Source of the DNA: Chiloscyllium plagiosum
Lineage: Eukaryota
Assembly (NCBI RefSeq): GCF_004010195.1
Contig: NC_057716.1
Location: forward strand, 104,808,822-104,871,088
Reading direction: 5' to 3'
Length of the DNA stretch: 62,267 nt
The translations under genes were made by a program, and so were the position numbers. Every line of letters starts with the position of its first letter. Within the stretch, counting starts at the first letter, position 1. This document shows, one piece after another, positions 7,322 through 62,077 of the stretch. The notes beneath the pieces were generated by a model. The model saw nothing but the letters and a program-made list of their open reading frames with translations, was not told the origin of the DNA and did not search any database.

Positions 7322-7536
7322 GCTGAAAGATGTTGCTGGAAAAGCGCAGCAGGTCAGGCAGCATCCAAGGAATAGGGGAATTGATGTTTCTTGCATAAGC
7401 CCAATTCCTGAAGAAGGGCTTATGCCCGAAATGTCGATTCTCCTGCTCCTTGGATGCTGCTGGACCTGCTGTGCTTTTCCAGCAACACATTTTTCAGCTC
7501 TGACCTCCAGCGTCTGCAGTCCTCACTTTCTCCTAG
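7322..7536. mobile_element. Fold-back non-autonomous Penelope-terminus element (family A) inserted in CR1
   Basis: Inverted arms; 15-bp TSD ttgaaagggttcaga at 7307-7321 and 7537-7551; hammerhead core at 7408-7435 with one substitution. Confidence 0.75.
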
Positions 7537-7659
7537 TTGAAAGGGTTCAGAAAAGATTTACAAGGATGTTGCCAGGGTTGGAGGATTTGAGCTACAGGGA
7601 GAGGCTGAACAGGCTGGGACTGTTTTCCCTGGAGTGTCGGAGGCTGAGGGGTGACCTTA

Positions 7660-7967
7660 GATTAGATTAGATTACAGTGTGGAAACAGGCCCTTCGGCCC
7701 AACAAGTCCACACCGACCCGCCGAAGCGAAACCCACCCATACCCCTACATTTACCCATTACCTAACACTACGGGCAATTTAGCATGGCCAATTCACCTGA
7801 CCCTGCACATCTTTGGACTGTGGGAGGAAACCGGAGCACCCGGAGGAAACCCACACAGACACGGGGAGAACGTGCAAACTCCACACAGTCGCCTGAGTCG
7901 GGAATTGAACCCGGGTCTCTGGCGCTGCGAGGCAGCAGTGCTAACCACTGTGCCACCGTGCTGCCCA
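7660..7967 (-). mobile_element. HE1 SINE (full length)
   Basis: tRNA-like head ggcagcacggtggcacagtggttagc..gggttcaattccc, V-SINE core, HER1 tail and (tctaa)n. Confidence 0.9.
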
Positions 7968-8824
7968 CTATCGGCCTTATAGAGGTTTACAAAATTGAGG
8001 GGCATGGATAGGATAAATAGACAAAGTCTTTTCCCTGGGGTCAGGAAGTCCAGAACTAGAGGGCATAGGTTTAGGGTGAGAGGGGAAAGATATAAAAGAG
8101 ACCTAAGGGGCAACTTTTCCACCCAGAGGGTGGTACGTGTATGGAATGAGCTGCCAGAGGATGTAGTGGAGGCTGGTACAGTTACAGCATTTAAATGGCG
8201 TTTGGATGGGTATATGAATAGGAAGGGTTTGGGGGGATATGGGTCAGGTGTTGGCAGGTGGGACTAGATTGGGTTGGGATATCTGGTCGGCATGGACGAG
8301 TTGGGCCGAAGGGTCTGTTTCAATGCTGTACATCTCTCTGACTTCATCTCCTTCAATGTTTTGGCCTCAACAGCTTCCCTGTTGGGATTCCACAGGCTCC
8401 CCACTCTTTTGATGAAGGTCTCCTCTCTGCCCTAAAAAGTCCTTCTCTTTCGGCCTGTGACCCCTGGTTTAGGATTCCCAATAATCTTCCTGCATTTACC
8501 CTGTTCAGTCCTGTTCAAATGTAGTCCGTTTTGAAGAGCTATAACCTCTCATGCTGCTTGATATACTAAAGGTTTGTTTAGTCACCTTGTTCCTTGTTGT
8601 TTATTCTTCCCCCCCCCCTTTCACTTTCAGCAGCATAAAAGTCAACACTGTTCTCTGTCCATGAACGAGAGGCCTGTGAAATAAGGGGCAGGCTGTTCAA
8701 GCCTTTAGAAAGATCACTGCTAATCTGATGATCACCTTAAACTCCACGTGACTCCAAGAAGTCCTGGCTGCAATGTCTTCAAGAATCTATGTCCCTCTGC
8801 CGTTTAAAAGTATTCAATAGAATC

Positions 8825-9312
8825 CCGACAGTGTGGAAAGAGTCCCTTCAGCCCAACAAGTCCACACCCAGAGCCATTCCCTGACCCTGTTACTCTACGT
8901 CTGCCCCTAACGAATGCTCCTAACTTAGAAGGAAGTGAGGACTACAGATTAGAATCGAAGAGTGTGGCGCTAGGAAAGCACAGCCGGTCAGGCAGCATCC
9001 GAGGGACCAGGAGAGTTGTAGTTTCGGATAAAAGCCCTTTATGCCCGAAACGTCAACTCTCCTCCTCGGATGCTGCCTGACCGGCTGTGCTTTCCTAGCG
9101 CCACGCTCTTTGACTCTAATGTAGCAAACCTACACTGAACCACTGCTGTTTCACCCTAACCTGCCCATCTTTGGACTGTGGGAGGGAACCCACGCAGTCA
9201 CGGGGAGAACGTGCAAACTCCACACACACGCACAGTCGCCCGAGGCTGGAATCTAACCCGGATCCCTGGTGCTGTGAGGCAGCAGTGCTAACCACTGAGC
9301 CATTGTGCTGCC
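8825..9312 (-). mobile_element. HE1 SINE split by a fold-back element
   Basis: Tail at 8825-8925, head at 9150-9312. Confidence 0.75.
8928..9118. mobile_element. Fold-back family A element inserted in an HE1 SINE
   Basis: Inverted arms (gcacagccggtcaggcagcatcc / ggatgctgcctgaccggctgtgc); the CUGAUGA box has been lost. Confidence 0.7.
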
Positions 9313-9845
9313 CTCTCTCTGGGAAGAGTTCCACCGACCTAAAACGCCTGTGGTGAAAGTTCCTACTTTTCGAATGATCAGATTTGTTTCAAAATGGCCA
9401 TCCCTCTTGCTCTAGCCTCCACGGCAGGGAAATATCCCCAGGGTCTTTGACGTTCCAATCGGATCATGCTTGTTCTTCCGAACTGCGATGGATGCAGATG
9501 CAGTCTGTCCAGTTTTTCCTCGGAACGATTACCTCCTCTGTTCCAGGGATCATCCGCTGAACCGCTTTTGAAGCGGTTTGGCCTTCCTCTCAACCAGGAG
9601 ACAAAAGTCACATTGGACTGTCCACATTGACTCCTGTGTGCTCTCGCTCTCGCTCTCGCTCTCGCCGGATGCGACCAGACCTACGGATCTTTTCCAGCAC
9701 TTTGTTATTTACACCTTCCAGTGGTCGCCGTTTCTTTTGTTAACGACAGGTAAAAAGATCGTGCTTTCCTGTTTTCGCATGAAACGTGTTGAGCTGGTTG
9801 ATCATTTGACAGGAACCTTGACTTGTTAAATTTTTATTTTAACAG

Positions 9846-9869
9846 AGCCAGCAGTCAATCCTGGAGCAG
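9846..9869 (+). other. DCAF8: Candidate 24-nt 5'UTR micro-exon
   Basis: T-rich tract with aacag acceptor; consensus donor CAG|GTAAGT. Confidence 0.55.
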
Positions 9870-10705: not shown

Positions 10706-10838
10706 CTTTCAAAGGCTTTCGAAGTTGACCCCAGTGATTCCTCAAGGAGAAAGTGAGGTCTGCAGATGCTGGATCACAAAGTTGAAACTTTATTGCTGGA
10801 ACAGCACAGCAGGTCAGGCAGCATCCAGGGAACAGGAG

Positions 10839-10874
10839 ATTCGACGTTTCGGGCACAGGCCCTTCTTCAGGAAA
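10839..10874 (-). ncRNA. Hammerhead motif, family A (left arm of fold-back)
   Basis: Reverse strand reads UUUC-CUGAAGA-A-GGGC-CUGU-GCCC-GAAA-CGUC-GAAU. Confidence 0.65.
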
Positions 10875-10877
10875 GGC

Positions 10878-10909
10878 CTGAAGAAGGGCCTGTGCCCGAA
10901 ACGTCGAAT
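10878..10909 (+). ncRNA. Hammerhead motif, family A (right arm of fold-back)
   Basis: CUGAAGA-A-GGGC-CUGU-GCCC-GAAA-CGUC. Confidence 0.6.
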
Positions 10910-11929
10910 CTCCTGTTCCCTGGATGCTGCCTGACCTGCTGTGCTGTTCCAGCAATAAAGTTTCAACCCAGTGGTTCCTCCCCAGGTTGTTGGATAATCC
11001 AATCCCAGATTCTGCGCAAAATCAATTCGAGACACTGCTTTGTATCTTAAATAAGACTGAGCAATTTAATAACAAATATCATAACTTTAGCAGAACAAAC
11101 TTTAAACAGCAAGATAATCTAACTGATGTACACCTATGAAAATCACTTGTTTTCAGTCCCAGTCACTGACTGACAGACCAACAACCGAATGTAGTTAAAG
11201 GATAAATCTGATGTCATGAAATCCCTCAGGGCACCCCTCACCCTTTCTTCCAAACAGCAGGGAAAATAGCCCCAGCCTCTTCCTATAGCTGAACAAACTG
11301 GCCAGGTTGTTTCCTGAGTTTTTAATGTGTTGTTCCACAGATATAGATGGGGCGTCTGTTGATTTTTTTTTTATTATTCTGAAGGTGGCAATCAGGGTTA
11401 TCCTTCCAGTTTGCTCAGATAAAAGCAGTATTCTCAACTTGCAAGAGCTGCCGATGTAGGGGTCGGGGGGGGACCTGCTTTGAAATTGTCATGAAATTCC
11501 TTTTTACACAAAACAGTCCAAAACCTAGTTCAAATTCTGACCACTCACTGACCGTCTCGTCCACTCAGTCCTAGTTACCATTCAATGTCGTCTGCTTGAG
11601 CTTGAGGTCACTTCCAGACTTGCCGGAACCAATTCCCAAGTATTGGCCTTGTTAATTCTGCTCTCTGTTTGAATGTATTGCTTTTCTCCAGCGATGAAGG
11701 GGCATCTGCAGAACCTTCTGATCAGATAGCAATCTGCAGTTAACATCCAGGTCTGGCCTGACCAACAAACACAAAAAAGCCTGTTTGGTCGGTTTTGCCT
11801 ATCACCAAACACACTCTCGCCCACAGCCCAAAAGTCCATTTTGGCTCTCGGTTCTCAGCTCCAAGCCAAAACTGGTAAATATTAATAAAATGAAGAAAAA
11901 AAAAATCAGTGAGGGTTCAAAGAGTGGAG

Positions 11930-12185: not shown

Positions 12186-12877
12186 CTGTCTCAGAGTCCA
12201 CCCAAGCTCAGGAGCGTGTGATGTGAAGTGTGTTGGCGAAGGTGTCCTGCGCTTGAACCTGGAATCAGTCAGTGGCCCTTCTGATGAGGCAAGTTTTGGA
12301 CAGACTTGGCTTGTATCTGCTGGGCAGTTTGAGTTGAAAAATGCAGCGCTGGAAAAGCGCAGCAGGTCAGGCAGCATCCAAGGAACAGGAGAATCGATGT
12401 TATGGGCATAAGCCCTTTGTCAGGAATGTGGGGTAAGGGGGCTGAGGTAAATGTGGGGTGGAGCTGGCAAGGTTGATGGGGTGGTGATTAAGTATGGACA
12501 CACTGATTGGTGTTGAAGGTGGTGAGGGGGCTTTTGAAAGGGAGGTTGTGCAGAGGTGGGTTTTTTTTTTCTTGTGAAAGAGCAGAGAACTAGGGATCAC
12601 CGTTTCAAATAAGGTGTCGGCCACCCCTTGTGATTGAGATGAAAACGTTTGTGTCCCGAGTCTTTGGAACTTTCTGGAAAGGTGGCGGAAGCTGAGATTG
12701 AGCACTTGTAATGCAGGTTAATTTGAGCCTCTGTTAACAAGGGGTGGAAGGTAATCAGGAGCAGACAGGAATGTGGCTTGGAGCCTAAATGGTTCAGTCA
12801 TGATGAACCGGCTTCCTGTTTCTTGGTTGTAGGCACATGTTTCCAGTGTGAATTCTGATGCAAATATTCATTCACGT

Positions 12878-13989: not shown

Positions 13990-16470
13990 TGGGTTGGCAG
14001 GCAACGGGTGAGAGTGCCTGTGCTCTGACCCCTCGTGCTACAGATTTTTCCAAAGGAAACTTTGTCCCCAGCCTGTACAGTGTACTCACCGACATCTCGA
14101 AGGAAGGTAAAGTTGTCCTATTCTTGAGACTTCCAGCGCTAGGGTCCGAAAGGAAAGCATTGCAACTCCAGCAGCATCCTCCCGCTCGCCCAAATGTGTG
14201 GAACCCCAACTGGGCGACACCAACATGCCACTCCGCCAGAGAAATGGGTTTGAGACTTCCCCGAGGCACCTGTGGTCAACTGTGGCGTTGTTCAGTCCCG
14301 ACTCCAGAAGGGTGCCCAACTGGTGGACCGACCACCAACTCCAGTGCCCAGCAAATGCCCCAGAAGTGATGGTAAGCTTCCTTCCAGCTTCAGCCAAGTG
14401 GCTTAGAGCCAAGCAGGAGGGCAAACGTGCAGCGATGTTGTCACCGAAGTCTGCAAAGAGCTTTTCTTTCAGAGTCGTCGAAGGAATCTGAAACGAGCTG
14501 AAGACTACCATTGTTGTGTGCTGTGAAGAAACCAGGGCTATGATCCCAGGGAGCGTTCAGAATGAGCTTGGTACAACAGCGAAGCCAGGAGGGAAATAGA
14601 GAGCCAGTGGTGGTCCGAGGAAAGCGAAGGAGCTGCAGTTCCTCACCTGGGTTAAGGCAGGGCCATCGAGATACCGTACGGACCCTTGGTCCCAAACCGA
14701 GGTGGAGTAAGTACAGCCCCCTTCTGGGTGACTGAAGACATCAGCCTCCGATGGAGCTAACGCTCCAAATAACTCCGAAAGCATGGTGCAATCAGGTGTT
14801 GGAGGGAATATCCCCAAGCAAAGGCGGGTCTTGGACTGCCACATGGTGTGGCGGATGCTGAAGCTTCTCTCTTCGAGGAGGTGCTGGGATACCAGCAGGG
14901 TTTTTCCACTTGGGGAGGAGCAGAGCTTACCTGTCATCTGTGTCAGGGGAAAGGGAGGACTGCAGATGCCCCCTCAGTGCGTTTCAGAGGACATCTCCAG
15001 GATGCCCGCACCAACCAACCCCACTGCCCCTTGACCAAACACTTCAACTCCCCTCTCCCACTCTGCCGAGGACCTGCAGGTCCTGGGATGCCTCCATCGC
15101 CACTCCCTCACCACCCGCCACCTGGAGGAGGAACGCTTCATCTTCCACCTTGGGACCCTCCAACCACCCTGCATCAATGTGGATTTTGACCAGTCTCCTC
15201 ATTTTCCCCTCCCCCCACCTAATCTCAGTCCAACTCCGTGCCACCCTCCTGACCTGTCCACCTTCCTTCCCACCTTGTCTGCACCACCCTCTTCTCCGAC
15301 CTATCGCCATTGCCCCCACCTCTCTCTACCTATCGCGCTCTCAGCCACCCCACTCCCACTTATCTCGCACCCCACCAGCCCACAAGCCTCATTCCTGATG
15401 AAGGGCTCTCACCCAGAAGGTCCACTGTCCTGCTCCTTGGATGCTGCCTGACCAGCTGTGCTTTTCCAGCACCACACTAGAGGCTGTCATCCCTGTCAAT
15501 TCCCGCAAAGCTTTTGCGAAGACAAACTCTGCCGTTGCCACTGCCTTCAGGAAAAGGGGACCAAGTGGGACTATGGAATCACCGTCTTCTTCGCTGTCAG
15601 GAAGTTCATCGTCCAAAGCCTTGCTGCGCTGGAGGTGAGCCGTCTTCTGGTCTCGGGGAATCCTTCCTGAAAGCTAGTATGGCTTCTAACCAAACCACGG
15701 GCATGATGTTTCACTGCTGAGTAACTCTTGGTGGTGCCAGGAACAAGACCGACCAGTCTGTGTGGCCACCTTCAATCCAAACCAGGCTTTTGGTTCAGTC
15801 GGTCGGATAGCATGAAGGAAGGGCCTGTCCAAGGGCTGCCTGCTGAAATTCATCGACATGCTCCGATTACCTCCACGCCAATGGCAATGGTCCTCCTCTG
15901 TGTGTCAGGTGACAGCATCCTTTTGTGGTCACGATGGGTCAGGCAAGAATGTGGCTTTGTCTCCCCCTGCCCCATCTTCAATACCACTGTTCTTGCCAAG
16001 AGCCAGCTTCGTTGTGAGGTGGCCGTCGCCTCCAGGTTGGACGGGGTGGTATCCAAGAAGAGAACAGCACTCCCTTCCCTTTTGGTATGCAGGTCTCTGC
16101 TGTTCCAGAAGAGAAAGCTCGCCTAATACACTCCTCAGTGCACACTTCCACGACTGTGTCTCAGCCTTGATCCTTTACCAACTCAGTCCAGTCCATCCCT
16201 CCCACTAAGATCGATGGGGCGATCCTCCCAAATGTGCAGCATGCCCTCCCCTTTCCCCTTGTCAAAGGCTGACATCAATGTAGAGATTCAAACATGGCAG
16301 CCTAATCTGTGCGTGCTGCCTCGGAGTGCTTACAGATGAGGGTCTGCGATGACTGACTGTGGTATCCGTGCTGATACCAAGACCCTGCTGGAAAAAGGCA
16401 GTCACTCCCCTGTATGGCTCTGAAACCTGGACTACATACAGATGCCAGCTCCAGACCTTTCAAAGTACCA
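13990..16470 (+). mobile_element. Highly decayed RTE-clade LINE (endonuclease end to RT C-terminus)
   Basis: Frameshifted RTE motifs in the expected order: WTDH (about 14325), QWWSE/KAKELQ and YGP (14605-14685), ILPES*YGF (15660), GC.LKFIDMLRL (15835), GVRQ.C (15937), KADI..EIQ (16265), LYGSETWTTYR (16410). Confidence 0.8.
14939..15483 (+). mobile_element. Penelope-like 3' fragment with family A terminus, inserted in RTE
   Basis: RFRGHL..HFNS..EEERFIFHLGTLQP segment; degenerate hammerhead at 15395; TSD ctgtcatc at 14931-14938 and 15484-15491. Confidence 0.8.
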
Positions 16471-23146: not shown

Positions 23147-23195
23147 ATGGGGGACAGGGGCAGTGAATTAGATCTGAAGCCTGACTTCAGGAATG
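23147..23195 (+). CDS. DCAF8: DCAF8 coding exon 1 (MGDRGSELDLKPDFRNG); exon begins at 23107
   Basis: Acceptor ccctag at 23101-23106, ATG in the context gcaagATGg, donor G|gtagg at 23196. The 16 codons + 1 nt splice in frame to GSLSSSPE, matching the layout of the human N-terminus (MSSKGSSTDGRTDLANG|SLSSSPE). Confidence 0.85.
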
Positions 23196-23279
23196 GTAGG
23201 TGAAGAACTCTGTACCTTTTCAATCTGGCGTCCCCTGCTATCAATACCCCTCTTGCCGCCCCCCCCCCCGTCCCAAACC

Positions 23280-23520
23280 TTCCCAGTCCCTGTAACCCTG
23301 CATTTCCCATGGCGAGCATGCCAACTCTGCACGTCTGTGGGTGCTGCGGGACAATTTCCCCAAGGCCAATCCACCCTAACCTGTACATCTTTGGATTGAG
23401 GGAGGGAACCCACACAGACATGGAGGAGAATGTGCAAACTCTACACAGACATTCTCCCGAGGCTGGAAGTGAACCTGGGACCCTGGCACTGTGAGGCAGC
23501 GGTGCCAGCCACCGTGCTGC
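23280..23520 (-). mobile_element. HE1 SINE variant in the first coding intron of DCAF8
   Basis: HE1 head and core; a similar variant segment lies at 2325-2410. Confidence 0.75.
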
Positions 23521-23901
23521 TCACCGGCAGTTTGTCTGCCTTGGTTGTTGCCGTGCCCACCCCCACTCCGGGCAGAGCCCACACTGTGTGCTCTGCTAAC
23601 CTGACTGGCAGCTCCTCCTGTGCTGTTCCCCGGTCCCAGTACCCGCTGCATGGCTCTGACTGCCCTGAGGTCGGGTTCACCCCTGACCTGGCTGCCGCCT
23701 CCTCTCTCTGAGACCAATCGCCCGCCCCACGGCAGCCCCCAGTCCAGCCAAACTCCCCTCTCTCTTACGGTTGAACGTCCCTCCGTTGTCGATTGGGTGG
23801 GAGGTGGTCTGGAGGGAGGGGAGTGTGGAGCTCGGTGTCGGGAGCAGTCGCCCTTGTTTTCTTTTTTAAAACACCCAAACCTGCCGCTGCTCCCCCCGCA
23901 G

Positions 23902-24620
23902 GCAGCCTGTCGAGCAGCCCCGAGGACACGGAAGAGGCGCGCGAGTCTTCCTCTGGCATCGAGGTGGAAGCCTCCGACCTGAGCCTGAGCCTGACTGGGG
24001 ATGAGCACATGGCGGAGGAGGAGGAGGATGAGGAGGCAGGTGGCCAGCGCCGAAGGGAAGGGGGCCGGCACGGCACCGACAAGGAGAGCTCGGACGAGCG
24101 GGACTCGGACTCGCTGGAGGACACCGGCACCTACTCCATCGTGGACGAGGACGAGGAGGAGGAGGAGGAGGGCGGCGGAGAGGAGCGCGAGGAGGAGAGC
24201 AAGATGGAGGACGGGCAGTCCGGCCCCCGGGCCCGGCGCCGCCGTGGGCCGAAGCGCGCCAGTGAGCCGGAGCGGGACTCCTCTGAGGAGGAGGCGGCGC
24301 TGGAGCGCTGGGTACACTCGGAGGTGGCGGCGCTGCCCCCCCCGACCTGGTGCGCGGCACCGGCGCTGGGGGGCCGGGAGATAGGCCGGGACCCCCGGGC
24401 CTTCATGTACCGGGCGTGCGGGGCGCGGACCTTCGTGGAGCGCCTGCGGCTGCAGCACAGCCTGGAGCACCACGCCGGCTGTGTCAACACGCTGCACTTT
24501 AACCGCCGCGGCACCTGGCTGGCCAGCGGCAGCGACGACCTCAAGGTGGTGATCTGGGACTGGGCGCGCCGCAAACCTGTCCTCGAGTTCGACACCGGTC
24601 ACAAGAGCAACGTCTTCCAG
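23902..24620 (+). CDS. DCAF8: DCAF8 coding exon 2 (acidic N-terminal region and first WD40 repeat)
   Basis: Encodes [18 protein letters not shown]...[31 protein letters not shown]...GHKSNVFQ, near-identical to DCAF8. Acceptor ccgcag, donor gtacgt. Confidence 0.97.
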
Positions 24621-24719
24621 GTACGTGCAGCGTGCACGGTGGCTGGCCTGTACTCGGGATGGCGCCGAACGTCTGAGCCTGACCCGGGGGGCGCGGGGGT
24701 AACGGTAACGTATCTCCCT

Positions 24720-24880
24720 GACCCCGTGTCCCCGCGGGGTCGGTGCGTATTCGGGGGAGGGGGTCCTCCTCCCCGTGTCCCCGCGGGGTTGGTGCGTATT
24801 CGGGGGGGGGGTGCGTATCCACTGTCCCTCCCCGTGTCCCCGCGGGGGTCGGTGCGTATCCACTGTCCCTCCCCGTGTCA
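24720..24880 (+). repeat. GC-rich intronic tandem repeat (3-4 units of 40-60 bp)
   Basis: ccccgtgtccccgcggggtcggtgcgtat repeated. Confidence 0.8.
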
Positions 24881-24962
24881 GTGTAATGTTGACCCATGTT
24901 TCCTTTGCATCTCTCCCGTTCCCCACCTCCTGCTTCCTTTGTGCCCTGTTGGTTTCCCGTAG

Positions 24963-25154
<192 letters not shown>

Positions 25155-25242
25155 TGACCCCCACCCGAACGTTCCTTCCCCACCTCGCGGTCGATGAGTT
25201 TGTGGTTTGGATTTGGATGCACCTTGTCTGTTTCTCCTGTAG

Positions 25243-25338
<96 letters not shown>

Positions 25339-25484
25339 TGAGTATCTGGGCTGTGCGTCGGGAGGGTGGCGTGGCTGGTGTTCGAGTTCTACACTAATCC
25401 CCTTGCGCCACAGCCTGTTGTGGGCGACAAACCAGATGGAAATCATCGAAACATCACACACTCATTGTGATGTGCAGCACGGCC

Positions 25485-26772: not shown

Positions 26773-27248
26773 AATCGTGTGGAAGCTGGCCATTCGGCCT
26801 TGCAAAGAGCATCCCACCCAGACTTTGAACCCTTTCCCCCTCACCAGCCACCTTTTCCCTGTACATCCCATGTGGAATCCACTGAACCTGTACATCTCTG
26901 GGCTGTGGGAGTCCAAGGGTCTGTTTCTGTGCTGGGCTATGACTTTTTAAAATTGGGGCACTGAGAGGAAATGGGGATATTGTGCAAACTCCACACGCAG
27001 TCACCCAAGGGTGAAATCAAACCTGGGTTCCTGGGCCAGTGTTCTGGGGATCAGTGCTCATCTTCCAACACCAACACTAAATACAAGCAATCTGTGCCAT
27101 TCTGCGGTTTGCTTGCGGGAGCTTTCTGCGCTGAGTTGGCACTGCCATTTCTGGCTGTTTTTCACAGCGATCCCACTTCACGGGCCTCCCTCCCTGTCAC
27201 CACACCACGGCTGAGTGCTTTGGGATGTTTAACAGAAGCGGTTGTTGA

Positions 27249-27404
<156 letters not shown>

Positions 27405-27490
27405 TGAGACCCTCTGTTTCTTCTCCCCTCCAGCCCCCCCCCCCCCTCTCCGGCAGCCAGGAGTCACTGGCAAACTGGGCAGCATCTAAA

Positions 27491-27527
27491 AGTCCTGATG
27501 AAGGGCTTTTTGCCCGAAACGTCGATT
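27491..27527 (+). ncRNA. Minimal type-I hammerhead ribozyme motif, family A (intact core)
   Basis: AGUC-CUGAUGA-A-GGGC-UUUUU-GCCC-GAAA-CGUC-GAUU: stem I AGUC/GAUU, stem II GGGC/GCCC, palindromic ACGU stem III, GUC cleavage triplet. Confidence 0.7.
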
Positions 27528-28899: not shown

Positions 28900-28977
28900 G
28901 TGAGAGCGCTGGGACGGTCTGACCGCGTGGGGCTTCAGTCAGGAGGGAGGAGGCATTTCATCACTTTTTGCTTTTAA

Positions 28978-41134: not shown

Positions 41135-41305
41135 AAGGTCAGGAGTCACACGACACCAAGTTTACTCGAAATCACAATCTTTCGGAGTGGCTAATTCTTC
41201 GTCAGGCGATGGAACAGTGCTCCGAAAGTTTGAGATTTCAAACAAACTTGGTGTCACATGACTTCTGAGCTTGCCCACCCCGGTCCAACACCAGCACCTC
41301 CACAC
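41135..41305. mobile_element. Older family B-like fold-back element
   Basis: Diverged inverted arms (gacaccaagttt / aaacttggtgtc) with ttcgtcagg and ctccgaaag remnants. Confidence 0.5.
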
Positions 41306-45526: not shown

Positions 45527-45998
45527 GAAGAAGATTGCAGGTCAAGAAGGCGGTGCTGAGTCCGAGGGTTGGGACTGAGAAAAGGTGGGGGGAGGGGAAA
45601 TGAGGAAGGTGGAGAAATCCGCATTCATCCCTTGTGGCTGGAGGGTTCCTAAGCGGAAGATGGGGCGCTCTTCCTCCAGGCGTCGTGTTGCCATGGTCTG
45701 GCGATGGAGGAGGCCAAGGACCTGCATGTCCTCGGCGGAGTGGGAGGGGGAATTAAAGTGTTCAGCTACGGGGCGGTTGGGTTGGTTGGTGCGGGTGTCC
45801 CAGAGGTGTTCTCTGAAACGTTCCGCAAGTAGGCGGCTTGTCTCCCCAATGTAGAGGAGGCCACATCGGGTGCAGCAGATGCAGTAAATGATGTATGTGG
45901 AGGTGCATGTGAATTTCTGACTGATATGGAAGGATCCCTTGGGGCCTTGGAGGGAAGTGAAGAGGGAGGTGTGGGCGCAAGTTTTGCATTTCTTGCAT
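45527..45998 (-). mobile_element. Penelope-like GIY-YIG fragment
   Basis: TRRLEEERPIFRLGTLQPQGMNADF, with upstream cysteine-rich/GIY-YIG remnants. Confidence 0.8.
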
Positions 45999-49898: not shown

Positions 49899-50342
49899 AG
49901 GGGCGGCACAGTGGCTCAGCGGTTAGCATTGCTACCTCACAGCACCAGGAACCCAGGTTCGAATCCAGCCTCGGGTGACTGTCTGTGTGGAGTTTGCACA
50001 TTCTCCCCATGTCTGCGTTGGTTCCCTTCCACAATCCAAAGATGTGCAGGTTAGGTGAATTTGCCATGCTAAATTTCCCAGAGAAGGTAAAAACAATGAC
50101 TGCAGATGCTGGAAACCAGAGTCTAGATTAGAGTGGTGCTGGAAAAGCACAGCAGTTCAGGCAGCATCCGAGGAGCAGGAAAATCGAAGCCCTTCATCAG
50201 GAATACAGCTATAGTGCCCATAGTGTTAGGTGCATTAGTCAGAGGGAAATGGTTCTGGGTGGGTTAGTCTCCAGAGGGTTGGTGTGGACTTGTTGGGCCA
50301 AAGGGCCTGTTTCCATACCGTAGGGGAATCTAATCTAATCAA
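49899..50342 (+). mobile_element. HE1 SINE interrupted by a family A unit (about 50080-50205)
   Basis: Head at 49899, tail taatctaatc at about 50340. Confidence 0.85.
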
Positions 50343-51850: not shown

Positions 51851-52899
51851 ATTTCATTATTTCCCTATTCTCTCAGGGTCCTATGTTCACCTGGGCCTTT
51901 CTCTTTCTTTGTATATATTTAAAGAAGCTCTTGTTCCCTGCTTTGATATTACTTGCAAGTACAGAGGAACCTGGAATATCCAAATGAGATGGGCGGGCAC
52001 TATTTCGTTCGGATAATTGATTATTTGGTTAACTGATTCAATGCCTCTCCTCTGGCGCTCTGAGTTTTCTGAAATTTCCTTTTTCCTCACTCTGCCTGCC
52101 TTGCTCTCTCTCTCTCTCTGTCTCGGGTGTGTTTCTGAGCAGAGACACGCTTGCATGTAAGGGACCTGCAGCATTGCTCAAGCCTCAACCCCGCCCACAT
52201 CAGTTCAATGGGATTGACTCAGTGAGCGCTTGCTAAGTCTGCTCCCCGTTCAGCAGCACAACACATGAGAGCCACGCCCCCCACCTCCCCGGTCCACCCT
52301 CCCCCACCCTGCGCCACCTGTCCACCCCTCCAAACCCATCCTTCTGCCCCCCCACTCTTGTTGCGAGGGTGCCAGTGGAGGCAAGATAGGGCCAAAAGGT
52401 GGCAGCAGCTTAGTGAAGGAAACTGGTGCCTGGTCACTAGGCCCATGATGAAGGGCTTTTGCCCGAAACGTTGATTTTGCTGCTCCTCGGATGCTGCCTG
52501 AACTACTGTGCTCTCCCAGCACCACTAATCCAGAATCATGATAAAGACTGGGTCGAGTGTGTGGTGCTGGAAAAACACAGCAGGTCAGGCAACATCCAGG
52601 AGCAGGAGAGTCGATGTTTCAGGCAAAAGCCCTTCATCAGGAATGGTGATGAGGACTGTAAAGGTGGACAACTTCCTTTATTCCTTCATTTTTCATTTTT
52701 TTATTCCATGTTTCGGTTTACTTTCCTGTGTTTTAAGATGGCACCAGAGAGTGGTGACATTATACAACACTTCTCACTGTAACTTGTAACAAGATGCACA
52801 TGACAATAAATAAATCAAATCATGGTCTAAGAGACTAATAGCACTTGGCCCTAATGTGGACTCTGATGTCCAGCATCTGCAGTCCTCACATTCGCCTCT

Positions 52900-55290: not shown

Positions 55291-55529
55291 TGTTATTGTG
55301 TTGAAAAATGTGCTGCTGGAAAGTGTTCTTCAGGCTTATGCCCAAAACGTCGACTCTCCTGCTCCTCGGATGCTGCCTGGCCTGCTGTGTTTTTCCAGCA
55401 CCACATTTTTAAACTCTGGTCTCCAGCATCTGCAGTCCTCACTTTCTCCTACATGTTATTGTGTATTATTGGCACTCAAGCAATGCACTGAGAAAAAGAG
55501 GCTCTTGTTTGAATCCTTTGAATGTGTTA

Positions 55530-56325
55530 GGAGAAAATGAGGACTGCAGATGCTGGAGATCAGAGGCGAGTGTGTGGTGCTGGAAAAGCAAAACCGGTCA
55601 GGCAGCATCCGAGGAGCAGGAGAGTCGACGTTTCAGGGAAGAGCTCTTCATCAGGAATGACTCTTGTGAGCTGAGGAGGTGGAGAAATAAGAGGGTGGGT
55701 GGGGCTGGGGAGAAGGTGAGTGCAATAGGTAGATGGAGGTGGGGGGTAATGGTGATAGATCAGAGAGGAGGATGGAGTGGATAGGTGGGAAGGAAGATGG
55801 ACAGGTCATGAAGGCAGTGCCAAGTTGGAACGGCGAGGAGGGGGGAATGAGGAAACTGGTGAAGTTCACATTGATGCTGTGGATTGGAGGATCCCAAGGT
55901 GGAATATGAGGCATTCTTCCTCAAGGTGTTGGGTAGTTAGGGTGTGGCAATGGAGGAGGCCCAGGACCCGCATGTTCTTGGTGGAGTGAGAGGGGGAGTT
56001 GAAATGTTCAGCCACAGGGCAGTGGGGTTGGTTGTTGCGGTTGTCCTGGAGATGTTCCCTGAAGTGTTCTGCGAGTAGGCGTCCTGTCTCCGTGATGTAG
56101 AGGAGACCGCATCGGGAGCAATGGATACAGTAAATAATGCGTGGAAATGCAGATAAAACTCTGGAGGATGAGGAAGGCTCTTTGACGCCTTGGATGGATG
56201 TGGAGAGGAGAGTGGGTTCATGGGGGGGGGGCGGCGTGGACCTGGTAAGAGAGTCGTGGAGGGAATGGTCTTTACGGAAAGTGGATAGGGGTGGGGAGGG
56301 AAATATACCTCTGGTGTTGGGGTCT
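55530..56325 (-). mobile_element. Penelope-like element, 3' part with family A terminus
   Basis: Homologous to the adjacent + copy; hammerhead remnant at 55625-55658. Confidence 0.8.
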
Positions 56326-56334
56326 GTTTGTGGG

Positions 56335-56810
56335 TTCCCACCACCAAAGGAATATTTTCCTCCCCTCCCCTATCCACTTTCCATAAAGACCATTCCCTCC
56401 GTGACTCTCGTCAGGTCCACGCCCCACATCAACCCACCTTCCCCTGCCACCGGAGGAATTGCAAAACCTCCCCCCTCTCCGCCCCCCTCAGGCTGCAAAG
56501 GAGCCTGCCACATCCATCAGAGTTTTATCTGCACTTCCACACACGTCATTTACTGCATCCATCACGCCAGATGCGGTCTCCTCTACATCGCGGAGACAGG
56601 ACGCCTACTTGCAGAACGTTTCCGAGAACACCTGAGACACTCGCACCAACCAACCCCACCGCCCCGTGGCCGAACACTTCAACTCCCACTCCGCCAAGGA
56701 CATGCAAGTCCTGGGCCGTCTCCATCGCCACTCCTTAACCACCCACTGCCTGGAGGAAGAACACTTCACCTTCCGCCTTGGGACCCCCCAACCCCATGGT
56801 ATCAATGTGT
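56335..56810 (+). mobile_element. Penelope-like GIY-YIG fragment (inverted relative to the previous copy)
   Basis: FICTSTHVIYCIHHARCGLLYIAETGRLLAERFREHL is a VIY-YIG endonuclease motif. Confidence 0.85.
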
Positions 56811-57642
56811 GACTCCAGACCTACAGCAATGTGTGGATGACTTTTAACAGCCCTCAGAAATAGCCCACTCAGTTCATGGGCAGTTAGGAACAGGTGACAG
56901 ATGCTGGCCTTGCCATTGACACCCATTTTCTCATGACAGAATTTCTAAAACTCTTGCCTTTTCAGGCCTTGTGAATGCAATGCTGCAGATGTTTGTGAAA
57001 TTGACCCACTTCAATGAGGAAGTACCAGGGTGCAGCAGGAAAGTGGGTGCCAGGCACAAATGTAGATTTAGAGGAATTAGACTGTGTGTGAAACTGAGAT
57101 TGGGGGCACAATAAATACCACAGTCCCAAGGGTATAACCTCGAGCTAGCATGTGCTGTTTCTCAGCTGCTTGTCATCTTTACTATCCAAAACCTGAATTC
57201 ATTTGATTTAGATAATCATCTCCCCTGCCACCTCCGCAGGAAGCATTAATTGTAGAATGTGTGAGATGATGGCACACCTCTGGTACCACACATATGGGAG
57301 TTCTTGCAACTAAAGTTGCATTTATATAGCACCCCTCCTGCACGTCAGTGCAGAGTGTTCACATGAGTGGTTACTAAATTAAATTTTAGCACACAATAGA
57401 TCAGGTGACCAGATGTTTGGTCCAAGGGATTGGTTTTGAGAAGCCTCTTGAAAGGGGGGAGTGTGGGATTACAAACCTTGAACCCCATGGTGGTAACTGG
57501 ATGTGCAAGAGGCTGGAATTGGAACCTCAGTGATGAGGGTAGATTGAAGACGTTAGGGTTGTCCTCCTTGGAGACAAGGCGAGGGGTTTGATTGGATAGA
57601 GGTTTTCAATGTCATGAGCAGCAGCTGGATAGACTAGACAGG

Positions 57643-57768
57643 AGAAAGTGAGGACTGCAGAAGCTGGAGATCAGAGCTGAAATGTGTTGCTGGAAAAGCG
57701 CAGCAGGTCAGGCAGCATCCAGGGAACAGGAGAATCGACCTTTCGGGCTTGAGCCCTTCTTCAGGAAT
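57643..57768 (-). mobile_element. Single family A unit inserted in CR1
   Basis: TSD gactagacagg at 57632-57642 and 57769-57779; hammerhead core with one substitution. Confidence 0.75.
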
Positions 57769-59187
57769 GACTAGACAGGGACAAGCAGTTCCCACTTTTA
57801 AAAGGAAGAATAAAGAGAGGGGATCAGATGGAAGTGATGCAATGAAGCAAGGGTGATTTGAGAAAAACAGTTTCAGTGAGCAAGCAGTTAGGGTTTGGAA
57901 TGCTTTTCCTGGAAATGTGGTGCAGGCATTGAGGGATGACATTGGATGATTATTTGGATAGAAATGTTCAGGAATATGAGGAAAAAAGTGGATGATTGAC
58001 ACTTGGGAATGGAACCATTAAAGGCACCGTCAACTGAATGGCCTCACTCTATGCTGTCAAGATTAGAGTGGTGCTGGAAAAGCACAGGTCAGACTGCCTG
58101 CTCCTCGGATGCTGCCTGACCTGTGCTTTTTCAGCACCACTCTAACCTTGACTCTGATCTCCCCAGCATCTGCCGTCCTCACTTACGCCTAGTTCATTCT
58201 ATGCTGTAACAGTTGAGATTCTGTGGAAAAGTGCAGTGATCTCAAAGCATTGTAGGGACGAGGAAGACCAGTACATTTATCCAGGAGACATATGGGTTAA
58301 ACCCATTCCAAGTCCGTTCTTAAACGTTTTCTGTGATTGTTTAAAAAGCAGAACAAAATTGAGCGGTTCAGTCTTTTGTGTTTCTTGTGAGCTGTTGAAA
58401 GAGTCTGATTCCCCTCTCTGAGGGTTATGCTCGGGTCTTGGCACCACATTATAGAGGAAGTATGTGAAGGCATGGGGGAGAGTGCAGAATAGGTTTGTGA
58501 GAAATCTCAGTCATGGACATAGATTGGAGAAGCTGAGACTGTTCTCGGACAAGAGAAGGCAGCTGAGGGATATTTTCAAAATGGTGAGAGTAAATCGGGA
58601 GAAATGATTGAGAACTTGTACCCATACATGGCTGAGCTCACTGAGGCATTGGGAAGAAGTTCAATTTGTGGCTTATCCATGTTGCTGGAATTGTTCTATC
58701 TCTCAGGTAAACAAATGTTCAGCAGAGCCTGTGAATGGTTAGCAAGACCTGTATTGGTCCAGGTTGAAGTTTAACCATTTGTCCGACAAATTGGCCTTTT
58801 CTTTAGAGCCTGAAAGTGAGTGAGATTAAACTGGGCAGAGGTCTGCTTAGCGAATGTCTCAGTTCCAGTTCTATTGTGAAGGGATAATGGTGTGATTGTG
58901 GCTCTGGGGATGTGTCCCTTTCTGTCGCTTCTGGGGGTCTGTGCAAGGAATGAGTTTGTTCAACTGTTGGTGAAAATTTGTGAATGAAAACATTTAAAAA
59001 GAACAGCCAATTCACGCTCTTGGAGCCATACTGTAACAATTGTAGAACTTCCTTGCCTCGCTCTCACTTTATTTTGGATTTTTCAGGGACAGTTTGTGAC
59101 ACCTTTTCCCCTATGGCAGGGCTTTGCACAGTGCCAGGGCCAGTGATAATTCAAGTTAGCCGATTCAGGTGAGCTGTTGAAATTGGG

Positions 59188-59380
59188 AACAAAATCAGAA
59201 ATTGTTGGAATGGCTCAGCAGGGCAGGCAGCACCTGTGAAGAGAAATCAGAGTTAATGTTCCGGAAGGGTCACTGGACCTGAAAGCTTTGCTCGATTTCT
59301 CTCCTCAGATGCTGCGAGACCTGCTGAGCTTTTCCAACAACTTCTGTTTTTGTTTCTGATTTACAGCATCTGCAGCTCTT
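59188..59380. mobile_element. Older Penelope-terminus fold-back element (related remnants at 2915-3045 and 6570-6640)
   Basis: Inverted arms (ctcagcagggcaggcagcacctg / cagatgctgcgagacctgctgag); gggtcactggacctgaaa stem II-like remnant. Confidence 0.55.
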
Positions 59381-59768
59381 TCAGTATTTGTTGAAATTGG
59401 GATTCTGTGTTGTTCTGGTGTCTAGGATTTATGCTGCTGCCCCTCGTTCTGTGCAAAACTGTGGGAGTTAAAACTAGGAGGCCATTCAGCCCCTTGAACC
59501 TACTCTGCCATTCACACACCAAAATTTTCACCACCTTTGATTTTTTTTTGGAGAGAGGGGTTACTGGATGAAGCAGATACAGTGGAGCTATAGGCACAGC
59601 ATGAACAAATGGCTGGCACAGGATCGATGGGTTGAACGGCACAGGATCGATGGGTTGAGGGAGACTAGCGTGAGCGTGTCTGGTAACAAAATTGATTAGT
59701 GTAAGCAATTTGGGAGAAGGTTTGTGGATCAGGTTGTAAGTTTGCTTGCTGAGCTGGAAGGTTCGTTT

Positions 59769-59808
59769 TCAGATGTTTCTTCGCCATGCTAGGTAACATC
59801 TTCAGTGA
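59769..59808 (-). ncRNA. Degenerate hammerhead motif, family C
   Basis: Reverse strand reads UCA-CUGAAGA-U-GUUACC-UAGCAU-GGCGAA-GAAA-CAUC-UGA. Stem I is UCA/UGA; stem II is imperfect. Confidence 0.5.
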
Positions 59809-60905
59809 GCCTCCGGTGAGGCGCTGGTGAAATGTCCCCCTTGCTATTTGTGTGGATTCGTCTGTTGTGCTGGGTGATATCATTTCCAGTTTTTTTTCTG
59901 AAGTTGGTAAGGGGGGTAAAAGGGGTGAATGCCGTACTTCTCAGATGAAAGCCATGTGCTGTGAACGCTGGAAACTTGGACTAAAAGCAAAACGTGCTGG
60001 AAGTAATCAGTCTGGCAGCTTGTGTGAAAAGAGATGTGTTAGCGTCTCTGCTTGATGACCTTTTTAGCAAAAGTACTTCCAGGTGCAGTCAATGAACAAG
60101 GCGGCTGACCACACAGCAGATCTGGAAAAGAGCAGTGTGAAATCATGGGGTTGTTTCCGTGGTGTTCTGAAAAGATTGTTTCCCAGCACGTGGATTGCAC
60201 TCTTACTCCTGCTGCCGATTGTAATCCTCCTCTTTAAAATCGTGACCTTGAAATATTTTTTAGAATTAGGTTTGATTGCCATGTGTACTCCTGTACAGGG
60301 ATACAGGAGTACAGTAAATATTTTACAATGTCGTCATTCACTGTGCCACCTTAGGTACAAAATCTTTGGTTTAAAAAGTAGAAAAATAACGTTAAAAGTT
60401 CAACACATCAGTTCCTCTCAGTATGAAGTAATAAATGCGAAGTAAAGTTAAAACATTCGAGTGACAGTCCCCCTTTAGCCATGGGCCTGCAGTTGCACCA
60501 AGCTGGGCTTTCCCAATGTGGGGTCAATCCCTCGATTCCTGTACCTCCGTGGAGCCTCCTGGCTCACCCGCTGCCTCGTCACAGACAGCCAGAATCCCAC
60601 TCTGGCCCCTGGCTGCTTCAGCAATCCTACTGACCATCAGAGCTCTGCCCGGGCACACCAAGCCTGCCACCCGAGAGGATCTCTGTTTAACATCCCTCAG
60701 GTCTGACTGTGCAGTGCTCCTTGATACCACACCACAGTAATGGCAGCATTTAGCTCATTCCAGCCTGTACCGTCGTTTAACATGCTCGGGGCTGATCAAA
60801 CTCAGTCCTGTGTTGCCACTTCATTCCTTATACCTTTTGATTCCCTTAGCCCTAATAAATCCATCTATCTCCTTTTTGACAATGTTCAATATTTTGTCCT
60901 CAGTT

Positions 60906-61147
60906 ATGATTTGGAGGTGGTGGTATTGGACTGGGGTGGACAAAGTTAAAAATCACACAATACCAGGTTATAGTCCGACAGGTTTAATTGGAAGCACTAG
61001 CTTTCAGAGTGCTGCTCCTTCATCAGGTGGTTGTGCAGTATGCTCCACTTATACTCCACAACCACCTGATGAAGGAGCAACGCTCCAAAAGCTAGTGCTT
61101 CCAATTAAACCTGTCGGACTGTAACCTGGTGTTGTGTGATTTTTAAC
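60906..61147. mobile_element. Family B fold-back element with a hammerhead motif in each arm
   Basis: Inverted arms of about 100 bp; TSD tttgtcctcagtt at 60893-60905 and 61148-61160. Confidence 0.8.
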
Positions 61148-61871
61148 TTTGTCCTCAGTTGCTTTCTGTGGCAGAGAATCACCTTACTCACGTGATGTGA
61201 GGCATGTGCTGTTAGCCTATCTGTAAACAATGGCTGATTACTGTCCTGTGCTGACATGGACTGTGATCGGTTTTGATAAGGGGCAAGGGGTCTTTGAGCG
61301 GATACACTTTATTTATAAACAAGAAAACATTCCAGTGTGCTTCCTCCAGCTACCAGTGTGGAATGTGAAGATAACTTGGCTTTGTTCTGTTTCAATCATT
61401 CCACCGGCTGTGGAGGTGAGGATCAGCCTTTGATTGGACAGGTTAGTGTTAGTGATCACTGGGGAGGGGTGCTTGTCTCTGCAATGTACAATGGGGCCAT
61501 TAGCACTTGATAAGGCAGTGGCTGCAGCTTCACTGAGTTGTCATGCACAAAGTCTGCCCACACGCACACGCATCAAAGCTCGGGGGAAAACATCTGAGCA
61601 TGTATCCGGTGAAGATGTACAACCACTATTTCAAACTCTCCTGGCTTCTGTTCACTCAGAAGCCTCAGAAAGTAGCTTGGCTGGAAGAAACTGAGAGTGT
61701 CGAGAGGTATCCCAGTCAAAAGATTGGACCTCACAGAGCAGCCTATTCTGGAAGCCAGTATGCAGTTGTAAGTGTCTTTAACTTATGTTTGCTTGTAGTG
61801 TCTTTAGAGTTTTGTAGGCTGGTGTGGCCCAGAGCTGAGAGTTGTGGAGCACAATGTGCTGTAAATTCCTG

Positions 61872-62077
61872 ATTTGGAGATGCCGGTTTTGGACTGGGGT
61901 GGACAAAGTTTAAAAATCTCTCGACACCAGGTTATAGTCCAACAGGTTTAATTGGAAGCACTAGCTTTCGGAGCGCCGCTCCTTCATCAGGTGGTTGTGG
62001 AGTATGAGTGGAGCAGACTGCACGACCAGCACTCTGAAGGAGCAGCACTCTGAAAGCTGGCGTTGTGATTTTTAACT
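61872..62077. mobile_element. Family B element with truncated inverted arm
   Basis: TSD ctgtaaattcctg at 61859-61871 and 62078-62090. Confidence 0.78.
61959..61993 (-). ncRNA. Hammerhead motif, family B (intact core)
   Basis: Reverse strand reads CAC-CUGAUGA-A-GGAGC-GGC-GCUCC-GAAA-GCUA-GUG. Confidence 0.7.

What the first reader, a model, noticed from the sequence alone, without database searches (positions are those of the whole stretch)
7322..62077. Dense population of minimal hammerhead ribozymes in at least three sequence families
Seen: roughly 18 intact or decayed copies of CUGANGA-N-[stem II]-GAAA-[4-nt palindrome]-NUH, flanked by a short stem I. Family A has stem II GGGC-N4/5-GCCC and GAAACGUC (e.g. 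10878, 27495, 50967). Family B has GGAGC-N3-GCUCC and GAAAGCUA (33982, 35282, 61959). Family C has GUUACC..GGCGAA (59769). Across families the catalytic boxes stay fixed while stems I-III change in a compensatory way (ACGU vs AGCU; UUC/GAA vs CAC/GUG vs UCA/UGA), and the stem II loops vary freely (UUUU, UUAU, CUGU, UCAU; AUC, GUC, GGC). Established: Penelope-like elements carry minimal type-I hammerheads with a palindromic stem III that are thought to cleave as dimers. Inference: at one copy per 3-4 kb, this genome could hold a very large and largely unannotated ribozyme repertoire. I cannot tell from the sequence whether these particular families are already catalogued.
Basis: partly seen in the sequence, partly recalled or inferred. 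Interest (0 to 1): 0.8.

Follow-up and report, generated by a model that had tools for sequence, protein, structure and literature searches.

The report
Penelope-element mini-hammerheads in shark DNA
The small self-cutting-RNA motifs are real, but they are the already described "minimal hammerheads" on the end pieces of Penelope-type jumping genes, present here in over 100,000 copies in a shark genome, and the copy ends suggest they were mostly copied from RNA that had not cut itself.

Summary
Confirmed. The window holds 11 strict hammerhead cores (0.22 by chance). Of 35 profile hits, 7 keep every minimal-hammerhead feature. They lie in pseudo-LTR fragments of Penelope-like retroelements: A and B Neptune-like, C Poseidon-like. 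The host is a shark. Exact genome counts are 87,506 (A), 17,087 (B) and 418 (C). The kind was described in 2014, and this scan noted it earlier on other pieces of this genome.

Copies decay after insertion: G12 is lost in 14/57 A and 9/25 B copies. They are mostly fossils, not a working repertoire.

What this check adds: 5' ends of A and B insertions pile up at the ribozyme's 5' edge (A 35/62 events, B 14/22), peaking on an initiator-like motif, not at the cut site (A 3/62, B 0/22). Genome-wide, at least 88.6% of one subfamily's copies run across the cut site. In 26/27 head-to-head pairs exactly one arm carries the ~35-nt tail. Best reading: transcription starts just upstream of the hammerhead and uncut linear RNA templates most short insertions. 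Cleavage was not tested and RNA reads were uninformative.

The parts
7313..7535 (.). Family A head-to-head pair; + arm core at 7408 (palindrome decayed to AUGU) with tail, - arm without; 15-nt target-site duplication
8942..9124 (.). Decayed family A head-to-head pair, 5' catalytic box lost in both arms
10749..10973 (.). Family A head-to-head pair, one insertion; - arm with tail, + arm without
10840..10873 (-). Intact minimal hammerhead, family A (stem I UUC/GAA, ACGU, GUC triplet)
10878..10908 (+). Family A core and stem II intact, 5' strand of stem I lost at the inversion junction
12312..12427 (-). Decayed family A pLTR fragment
14857..15486 (+). 3' part of an A element: GIY-YIG remnant (14857-15292), 3' UTR, decayed hammerhead at 15395
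27491..27594 (+). Solo family A fragment starting about 4 nt before the core; intact hammerhead 27491-27527, sense strand inside a DCAF8 intron
29581..30124 (-). 3' part of an A element: GIY-YIG remnant (29834-30124), hammerhead at 29680 with G12 lost
33894..34093 (.). Family B inverted structure; intact hammerhead 33982-34016 on the minus strand (CAC/GUG, AGCU, CUA triplet)
35104..35361 (.). Composite: B tail (-), decayed A arm (-), intact B hammerhead 35279-35313 (+)
41132..41303 (.). Older B-like head-to-head pair, decayed
45545..45997 (-). GIY-YIG endonuclease remnant with Cys linker (PF01541, E 4.4e-5), followed by an assembly gap; same family as the ORF upstream of A hammerheads
50091..50204 (-). 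Family A fragment with a deletion through stem II and GAAA
50895..51110 (-). Family A fragment; hammerhead 50969-51000 complete but with a GUU triplet; short endonuclease remnant upstream
52445..52644 (.). Two family A fragments tail to tail, both decayed
55333..56824 (.). A fragments 55333-55445(+) and 55534-55658(-); GIY-YIG remnants 55884-56213(-) and 56497-56824(+) joined through an internal inversion
57644..57768 (-). Family A fragment with tail, core intact, palindrome decayed to AGGU
59174..59379 (.). Head-to-head pair of a further family (stem II GGGUC/GACC type), decayed
59705..59810 (-). Family C pLTR, hammerhead 59769-59808 decayed; runs more than 100 nt upstream into element sequence
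60907..61162 (.). Family B head-to-head pair, 13-nt target-site duplication; - arm complete (C3 at 61026), + arm with G12 lost
61870..62060 (.). Family B; intact hammerhead 61959-61993 on the minus strand, partial + arm 62035-62060
23147..29370 (+). Context: DCAF8 coding exons, residues 1-498 of a 613-aa shark protein

Best explanation
The motifs are minimal type-I hammerheads in the pseudo-LTRs (pLTRs) of endonuclease-bearing Penelope-like elements (PLEs), and most genomic copies are 5'-truncated insertion fossils. Shown: linkage to RT and GIY-YIG ORFs, tandem pLTR-ORF-pLTR units, two 3' ends about 35 nt apart (the tail), target-site duplications, and decay after insertion. Inferred: in A (and probably B) transcription starts at an initiator a few bases 5' of the catalytic core. 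The element's RT starts internally, about 90 or about 125 nt downstream of the core, and runs to the 5' end of uncut RNA. That gives 95-130-nt solo copies, or head-to-head pairs with one tailed and one untailed arm, formed either by fold-back of the cDNA end or by joining two cDNAs. Longer copies come from read-through tandem or ligated circular RNA. The hammerhead is under selection in the master elements and probably cleaves only as a dimer or with the element's protein (from the literature). Single genomic copies are probably inert.
For: ORF linkage: L145 has a 561-aa frame with RT (PF00078, E 1.4e-8), a Cys linker and GIY-YIG (E 5e-4), ending about 155 nt before an A motif. Tandem units: 2,868 bp (A, L150) and 2,517 bp with RT (B, L061). 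GIY-YIG upstream of a C motif in L073. Four window A motifs follow GIY-YIG remnants. 5' ends (0 = C3, cut after about +27): A 52/86 copies at -14..+12 and 4/86 at +26..+32; B 20/31 and 0/31; C 0/6 in either bin. By insertion event: A 35/62 versus 3/62 (at +24..+32), with 15/62 at -5..-3; B 14/22 versus 0/22. Genome-wide: 30,940 of 34,905 anchors downstream of the cut also match across it; 15,310 of 96,898 stem II matches keep the -11..-5 upstream bases. One arm tailed in 19/20 A and 7/7 B pairs. Duplications of 7 nt or more flank 23/27 pairs. For solo copies, duplications of 8 nt or more: 5/17 versus 6/272 controls (A), 3/7 versus 1/42 (B). Compensatory pairs between families: 13 cells versus 5.2 in shuffles. 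G12 lost in 14/57 and 9/25 copies. In vitro precedent: two internal RT starts, extension on both target strands, unprocessed RNA as main substrate, protein-assisted cleavage (PMC11167929).
Against: No cleavage assay and no transcription-start data. RNA reads from one single-cell run showed no place where many molecules begin or end, at the initiator or at the cut. In B the non-CpG core is better kept than downstream bases (6/258 versus 66/1012, p 0.0065), which fits pure neutral decay less well, though the core is A-rich. The 15.8% upstream figure is a lower bound because the probe fits only some variants (the one long copy in my sample did not match). Copies under 45 bits were left out of the end mapping, which disfavours short copies starting at the cut. 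B's 5' ends are more spread and its initiator match is poor. No endonuclease was seen for B (deleted in L061). Clade labels rest on motifs, not on a tree.
Confidence: 0.85

Rival explanations
1. Same elements, but the 5'-end pile-up is made by the endonuclease or by DNA repair, not by a transcription start. The GIY-YIG domain prefers ATT, and family A has ATT at -4..-2, so intermediates may be cut or resolved there.
For: The Anolis element cleaves preferentially at 5'-ATT-3' near its ORF-pLTR junction (PMC11167929). The A mode sits at -5..-3. Two A arms are joined to B exactly at B's AT-rich tail boundary.
Against: B shows the same pile-up without ATT at that place. Solo copies flanked by target-site duplications end there too. 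C, which also has a GIY-YIG domain, shows no pile-up (0/6; small n).
Confidence: 0.25
2. The hammerheads do cleave in vivo as dimers in tandem transcripts; the unit RNA is ligated into a circle and copied, which leaves no trace at the cut site. This would account for the copies that run far upstream, alongside uncut RNA for the short ones.
For: Model proposed in PMC4209133. Cores fixed and stems covarying between families show selection on the fold. 24/62 A and 6/22 B events extend upstream of -14.
Against: A circle has no 5' end, so it cannot explain the majority class. Read-through tandem RNA explains the long copies equally well. No reads ending at the cut here or in Anolis.
Confidence: 0.35
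3. Head-to-head pairs arise by self-priming on an antisense RNA template, as proposed for rotifer Penelope elements.
For: Small palindromes or microhomologies at junctions. Both arms share the subfamily in 16/16 readable pairs. Proposed in PMC3846280.
Against: Solo copies share the same 5' boundary. The one-tail rule (26/27) matches two RT starts on sense RNA, shown in vitro.
Confidence: 0.12
4. The dispersed copies form a functional host ribozyme repertoire, for example cutting pre-mRNAs such as DCAF8 in cis or through trans-dimers.
For: At least 70,570 A copies keep core, palindrome and 2 bp of stem I exactly. pLTR sequence is present in RNA reads on both strands. One intact copy lies sense in a DCAF8 intron.
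Against: CpG decay of G12 at 25-36%. Only 18/131 sampled fragments intact. Single motifs were inactive in vitro (PMC4209133). Predicted folds give stem II but not the hammerhead junction in 4 of 5 copies, and neither in the fifth.
Confidence: 0.07
5. Chance matches in repetitive DNA.
For: Rfam finds no hammerhead. Monomer folding energies are mostly unremarkable (z from 0.04 to -1.85).
Against: 11 versus 0.22 expected. Reversed-pattern controls give 0 genome-wide. Fixed position in pLTRs and covariation.
Confidence: 0.01

Closest known systems
Minimal hammerheads (min-HHR) in pLTRs of metazoan Penelope-like elements, including fish Xena, Poseidon and Neptune (Cervera and de la Pena 2014, PMC4209133)
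   Same: Type-I core, extra base between A9 and G10.1, G10.1-C11.1 pair, palindromic 15.2-16.2, location in pLTRs, several consensus families per genome, mostly single truncated copies, some close pairs on opposite strands.
   Different: Host is a shark, not named in the parts read. At least 105,011 exact motifs against about 4,000 (coelacanth) and 9,000 (Xenopus) with another descriptor. Stem II is 4-6 bp and stem I only 2-4 bp, against 7-8 and 4-5 bp in the Schistosoma families.
PAc, Poseidon element of Anolis carolinensis (Frangieh et al. 2024, PMC11167929)
   Same: Two 3' ends bounding a 30-40-nt tail; no sign of ends at the hammerhead cut; for family C an ATG at the start of stem II with a frame open through the tail (read, no full-length copy checked).
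   Different: In A and B the ORF starts after the tail, about 160 nt (A, L150) and about 120 nt (B, L061) from the core. The 5'-end pile-up at the ribozyme edge is not described in the text read.
Non-LTR retrozymes (PMC7229834; bioRxiv 10.64898/2026.07.22.740005)
   Same: Type-I hammerheads needing dimers in vertebrates; very high copy number (126,247 in axolotl); related to pLTRs.
   Different: Retrozymes are head-to-tail tandem arrays with canonical loop 1-loop 2 contacts. These copies are dispersed, solo or head-to-head, and minimal.
Rfam hammerhead families (release 15)
   Same: Catalytic boxes CUGANGA and GAAA, NUH triplet (recalled numbering).
   Different: No match at gathering score or at E up to 10.

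Membership tests
PLE minimal hammerhead (Cervera and de la Pena 2014) | Conserved boxes CUGANGA and GAAA with U16.1-H17 | tested here: met
   11 strict cores in the window, 7 complete; 105,011 exact genome matches
PLE minimal hammerhead (Cervera and de la Pena 2014) | Extra base between A9 and 10.1; G10.1-C11.1 pair | tested here: met
   A (A, B) or U (C) after the box; G-C or its CpG-decayed G-U in 13/13 aligned rows
PLE minimal hammerhead (Cervera and de la Pena 2014) | No helix III; palindrome at 15.1-16.1 | tested here: met
   ACGU (A, C), AGCU (B); 28 of 41 descriptor hits in sampled stretches are palindromic, most others are CpG-type changes
PLE minimal hammerhead (Cervera and de la Pena 2014) | Compensatory changes in stems between families | tested here: met
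   13 hand-picked rows of three families: 88.9% paired, 13 double changes versus 5.2 shuffled, slid controls at most 43.6%; stem I UCA/UGA, GCA/UGC, CCA/UGG in C-type families. Relatedness not corrected; R-scape not available
PLE minimal hammerhead (Cervera and de la Pena 2014) | Position in both pLTRs flanking an RT/GIY-YIG ORF | tested here: met
   A: L150 tandem and L145 ORF; B: L061 tandem with RT; C: downstream pLTR after GIY-YIG only
PLE minimal hammerhead (Cervera and de la Pena 2014) | Self-cleavage as dimer or with protein help | not testable with these tools
   Needs an assay; one search showed no end pile-up, which is no test of activity
EN+ Penelope-like element | Optional 30-40-nt tail on one end, inverted 5'-truncated partner, target-site duplication | tested here: met
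   26/27 pairs with exactly one tail; duplications of 7 nt or more in 23/27; features as in Craig 2021 and Arkhipova 2013
Neptune clade (family A) | Cys-rich Zn-finger linker between RT and C-terminal GIY-YIG | tested here: met
   C-x(2-4)-C-x2-C before the endonuclease in L145, L105, L148; Nematis shares the linker, no tree built
Neptune clade (family B) | Cys linker and C-terminal GIY-YIG | tested here: inconclusive
   RT and start of a Cys linker in L061, then a deletion; no endonuclease seen
Penelope/Poseidon clade (family C) | GIY-YIG without Cys linker; RT phylogeny | tested here: inconclusive
   GIY-YIG E 0.0095; motif style judged from recall; linker and RT not examined
Non-LTR retrozyme | Head-to-tail tandem units each with a complete hammerhead | tested here: not met
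   Window copies are solo, head-to-head or tail-to-tail
Rfam hammerhead families | Covariance-model score at gathering threshold | tested here: not met

The most novel reading that the evidence does not exclude
In shark Neptune-like elements the hammerhead is the first thing transcribed: an initiator lies 4 nt before the core, so cleavage would remove the cap and about 32 nt. The roughly 0.9 million pLTR fragments then form a base-resolution record showing that uncut linear RNA, copied from two internal RT starts, is the in vivo template for most insertions, and that cleavage takes RNA out of the insertion route or sends it to circles. This makes the open question of what PLE hammerheads do in vivo testable by one genome-wide end map and one CAGE experiment.
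Probability: 0.45. Interest if true: 0.55.

Novelty: new member of a known kind. Interest (0 to 1): 0.3.

Why it matters
The class is known, so the catch itself is ordinary. Two things add value. First, scale: at least 105,011 exact motifs in 3.56 Gb, about 30 per Mb, near the 126,247 reported for the far larger axolotl genome (different descriptors, rough comparison) and invisible to Rfam. Second, the function of PLE hammerheads is stated to be unclear (Craig 2021). With this many copies, the places where insertions begin and end read out the RNA template in vivo. They agree with the one in vitro study (uncut RNA, two RT starts) and point to a transcription start directly before the ribozyme.

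Tried and rejected
Rfam scans: no hammerhead; the E-value hits are miRNA models on inverted repeats. RNA-run search: no RNA holder listed. Read lay on a full-length A unit: X19 laid 4,538 reads, deepest over the pLTRs on both strands, with no place where many molecules begin or end; X20 laid 0; X15 and X7 are contigs; uninformative on start or cleavage. First covariation count had the four family B rows out of register, so it is not used; redone on 13 rows without B. Four long 'open frames' were mostly assembly gaps. The C pair at C4 spaced 2,517 bp is divergent, not a tandem; no full-length C element was found, so its ORF start is untested. A downstream promoter element at the usual spacing was looked for by eye in A and not seen (consensus recalled). 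The last 115 residues of DCAF8 were not found in the window, so gene extent beyond 29370 is unknown. An unrepresented 3' UTR as the cause of the 5' pile-up was checked: upstream flanks of solo copies share nothing (0/136 A and 0/21 B pairs scoring 30 or more), though a few B copies may extend to about -20. Literature searches for a shark-specific description listed none; one search's only hit uses 'shark' for the head shape. Lunse et al. (RNA Biol 14:1499) is not held; Repbase and Dfam cannot be searched here. A look-up of earlier scan notes for the end pile-up found none.

Full report
OBSERVATION. The motifs are there. A strict descriptor finds 11 sites on both strands against 0.22 in 100 dinucleotide shuffles. 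Profiles built from fetched copies give 35 hits in the window: 25 A-type, 9 B-type and 1 C, weak ones included. The 50998(-) copy ends in GUU. The 10878(+) copy has lost the 5' strand of stem I. The one C copy is decayed. Rfam has no hammerhead match.

HOST. The exon at 24000-24620 is 98% identical to DCAF8 of Chiloscyllium punctatum and 90% to whale shark, so the host is a carpet shark. The genome held has 3.56 Gb. DCAF8 residues 1-498 map to 23147-29370. The intact copy at 27495 lies sense in an intron.

WHAT CARRIES THEM. Family A follows GIY-YIG remnants at four places in the window, and the remnant at 45545-45997 scores PF01541 above its cut-off. Elsewhere in the genome L145 has a 561-aa frame with RT (E 1.4e-8), a Cys linker and GIY-YIG (E 5e-4, below cut-off) ending about 155 nt before an A motif, and L150 has two A motifs 2,868 bp apart around a broken ORF. 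B flanks a 2,517-bp unit with an RT (E 0.0044) whose endonuclease is deleted in that copy. C follows a GIY-YIG of another style (E 0.0095). Neptune and Nematis are defined by the Cys linker (Craig 2021), so A is Neptune-like. B (Neptune-like) and C (Poseidon-like) are inferred from motifs, partly recalled; no tree was built.

NUMBERS. Exact patterns give 87,506 A, 17,087 B and 418 C matches, with 0 for reversed controls. 70,570 A matches also keep 2 bp of stem I. In 52 stretches of 10 kb taken at round coordinates on C1-C40 (511 kb without N), there are 131 pLTR fragments, 35 with core and stem II, and 18 fully intact. This extrapolates to about 0.9 million fragments and about 125,000 intact motifs (18 is a small count). 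The window is about twice as dense as the sample. Published counts are about 4,000 (coelacanth) and 9,000 (Xenopus) minimal motifs and 126,247 canonical type-I motifs in axolotl, each with other descriptors.

SELECTION. Between families the boxes stay fixed while stems change in pairs. Examples are stem II GGGC/GCCC, GGGU/ACCC, GGAGC/GCUCC and GUUACC/GGUGAC, and stem I UCA/UGA, GCA/UGC and CCA/UGG in C-type families. On 13 hand-picked rows of three families, 88.9% of cells pair and 13 show double changes against 5.2 in shuffles; slid controls reach at most 43.6% (relatedness not corrected; an earlier count with B rows out of register is set aside). Within families the copies decay. G12, which sits in a CpG, is changed in 14/57 A and 9/25 B copies. 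Non-CpG core positions are no better kept than downstream ones in A (38/555 versus 81/1915). In B they are better kept (6/258 versus 66/1012, p 0.0065), which goes against simple neutrality, though the core is A-rich. The reading is selection in master elements and little or none in inserted copies.

COPY ENDS. I mapped ends of copies scoring 45 bits or more in the sampled stretches plus the window (86 A, 31 B, 6 C; position 0 = C3; cut after about +27). 3' ends fall at about +90 or about +125, the optional tail of PLEs. In 19/20 A and 7/7 B head-to-head pairs exactly one arm has the tail. Shared flanking words of 7 nt or more surround 23/27 pairs and of 10 nt or more 13/27 (no control run for pairs). 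Both arms share the loop in 16 of 16 readable pairs of 27, and junctions differ from pair to pair, so each pair is one fresh insertion.

5' ends pile up at -14..+12 in 52/86 A and 20/31 B copies, against 4/86 and 0/31 at +26..+32; all 6 C copies run more than 100 nt upstream. By event the figures are A 35/62 (15 at -5..-3) against 3/62 near the cut, and B 14/22 against 0/22. Solo copies ending there have unrelated upstream flanks and an excess of target-site duplications. Genome-wide, 30,940 of 34,905 anchors just 3' of the cut also match across it (88.6%, before allowing for decay of 7 more bases), while 15,310 of 96,898 stem II matches keep the -11..-5 bases (15.8%, a lower bound). The score cut-off works against short copies starting at the cut, but the genome-wide anchor count does not share that bias.

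MECHANISM. Shown: linkage, anatomy and end distributions. Inferred: the A mode falls on the A of a YYANWYY initiator match (consensus recalled) kept across A subfamilies. Penelope of D. virilis has its start and an internal promoter in the pLTR. In vitro, the Anolis element starts RT at two internal sites bounding the tail, extends both target strands, uses mainly unprocessed RNA, and cleaves only with its protein. Together: RNA begins just before the hammerhead, RT runs from +90 or +125 to the 5' end of uncut RNA, and the product is a solo copy or, by fold-back or joining of two cDNAs, a head-to-head pair. Cut linear RNA is at most a minor template. Ligated circles are not excluded, since they restore the sequence across the cut. 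I put 0.85 on the identity and fossil status and 0.45 on the initiator model. Rivals are endonuclease cleavage at ATT, antisense self-priming and a host function. The RNA reads show pLTR sequence on both strands and no end pile-up, which decides nothing.

WHAT IS KNOWN. Minimal hammerheads in pLTRs, their mass occurrence, single truncated copies and close pairs on opposite strands were described in 2014. Inverted 5' partners and the one-sided tail are described too. Eight searches listed no shark-specific description and none of a 5'-end pile-up at the ribozyme. The scan's earlier notes reach the same identification on other pieces of this genome and hold none on the pile-up under my words.

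PAPERS SEEN. PMC4209133: parts 1-2 of 4 (abstract to start of methods), no supplements. PMC11167929: parts 1-2 of 4 (main text, start of methods). bioRxiv 10.64898/2026.07.22.740005: part 1 of 5 and passages; it sampled one chondrichthyan, for tandem retrozymes. Passages only: Craig 2021 (preprint and PMC8557442), PMC3846280, PMC2377424, PMC7229834, PMC6765202, PMC6155905. Lunse et al.: title in a reference list only. Unread supplements and Repbase or Dfam may already list these families.

VERDICT. Real, correctly identified, and a new member of a known kind. Interest 0.3. The end-mapping result is the part worth following up.

Noticed in passing
window 35104-35361; L125:7014-7290: Two independent A/B composites with the same plan: an A arm replaces most of the tailed arm of a B head-to-head pair and is joined to B's tail at its AT-rich boundary. 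2 of 64 head-to-head pairs in all fetched DNA. Either targeted insertion into B or a template jump between families.
   Followed up: partly
L051, L061, L064, L105, 17-26 nt upstream of family A cores: A polypyrimidine tract ending in YAG, like a 3' splice site, precedes the hammerhead in several A subfamilies; in D. virilis an intron ends at helix I.
   Followed up: no
window 59769-59808(-) and L001-L030: Family C has ATG at the base before stem II and a frame open through the tail, as described for the Anolis Poseidon element; C copies also show the two 3' ends.
   Followed up: partly
L150:1445 and 4313: The two pLTRs of this tandem unit belong to different A subfamilies, so the unit may be a chimera or an insertion into an older pLTR.
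   Followed up: no
window 56232-56423: Near-perfect inverted repeat inside PLE coding sequence joining two oppositely oriented endonuclease remnants.
   Followed up: no
window 23147-29370: DCAF8 exons for residues 1-498; the last 115 residues were not found in the window and may lie in the gaps near 31163-31909 or elsewhere.
   Followed up: partly
window 52804-53778, 20151-22648, 47902-48317: Tandem arrays of 45-nt, 52-nt and 32-nt units; the 52-nt unit is part of a dispersed SINE-like repeat (resembles the elasmobranch HE1 SINE, recalled).
   Followed up: no
L015:2878(-), L143:4717(+), L016:2430(+), L131:7119(+), L126:4926(+): Further hammerhead families in this genome: stem II GGGU/ACCC, GGGUC/GACC type, and C-like families with stem I GCA/UGC or CCA/UGG.
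   Followed up: partly
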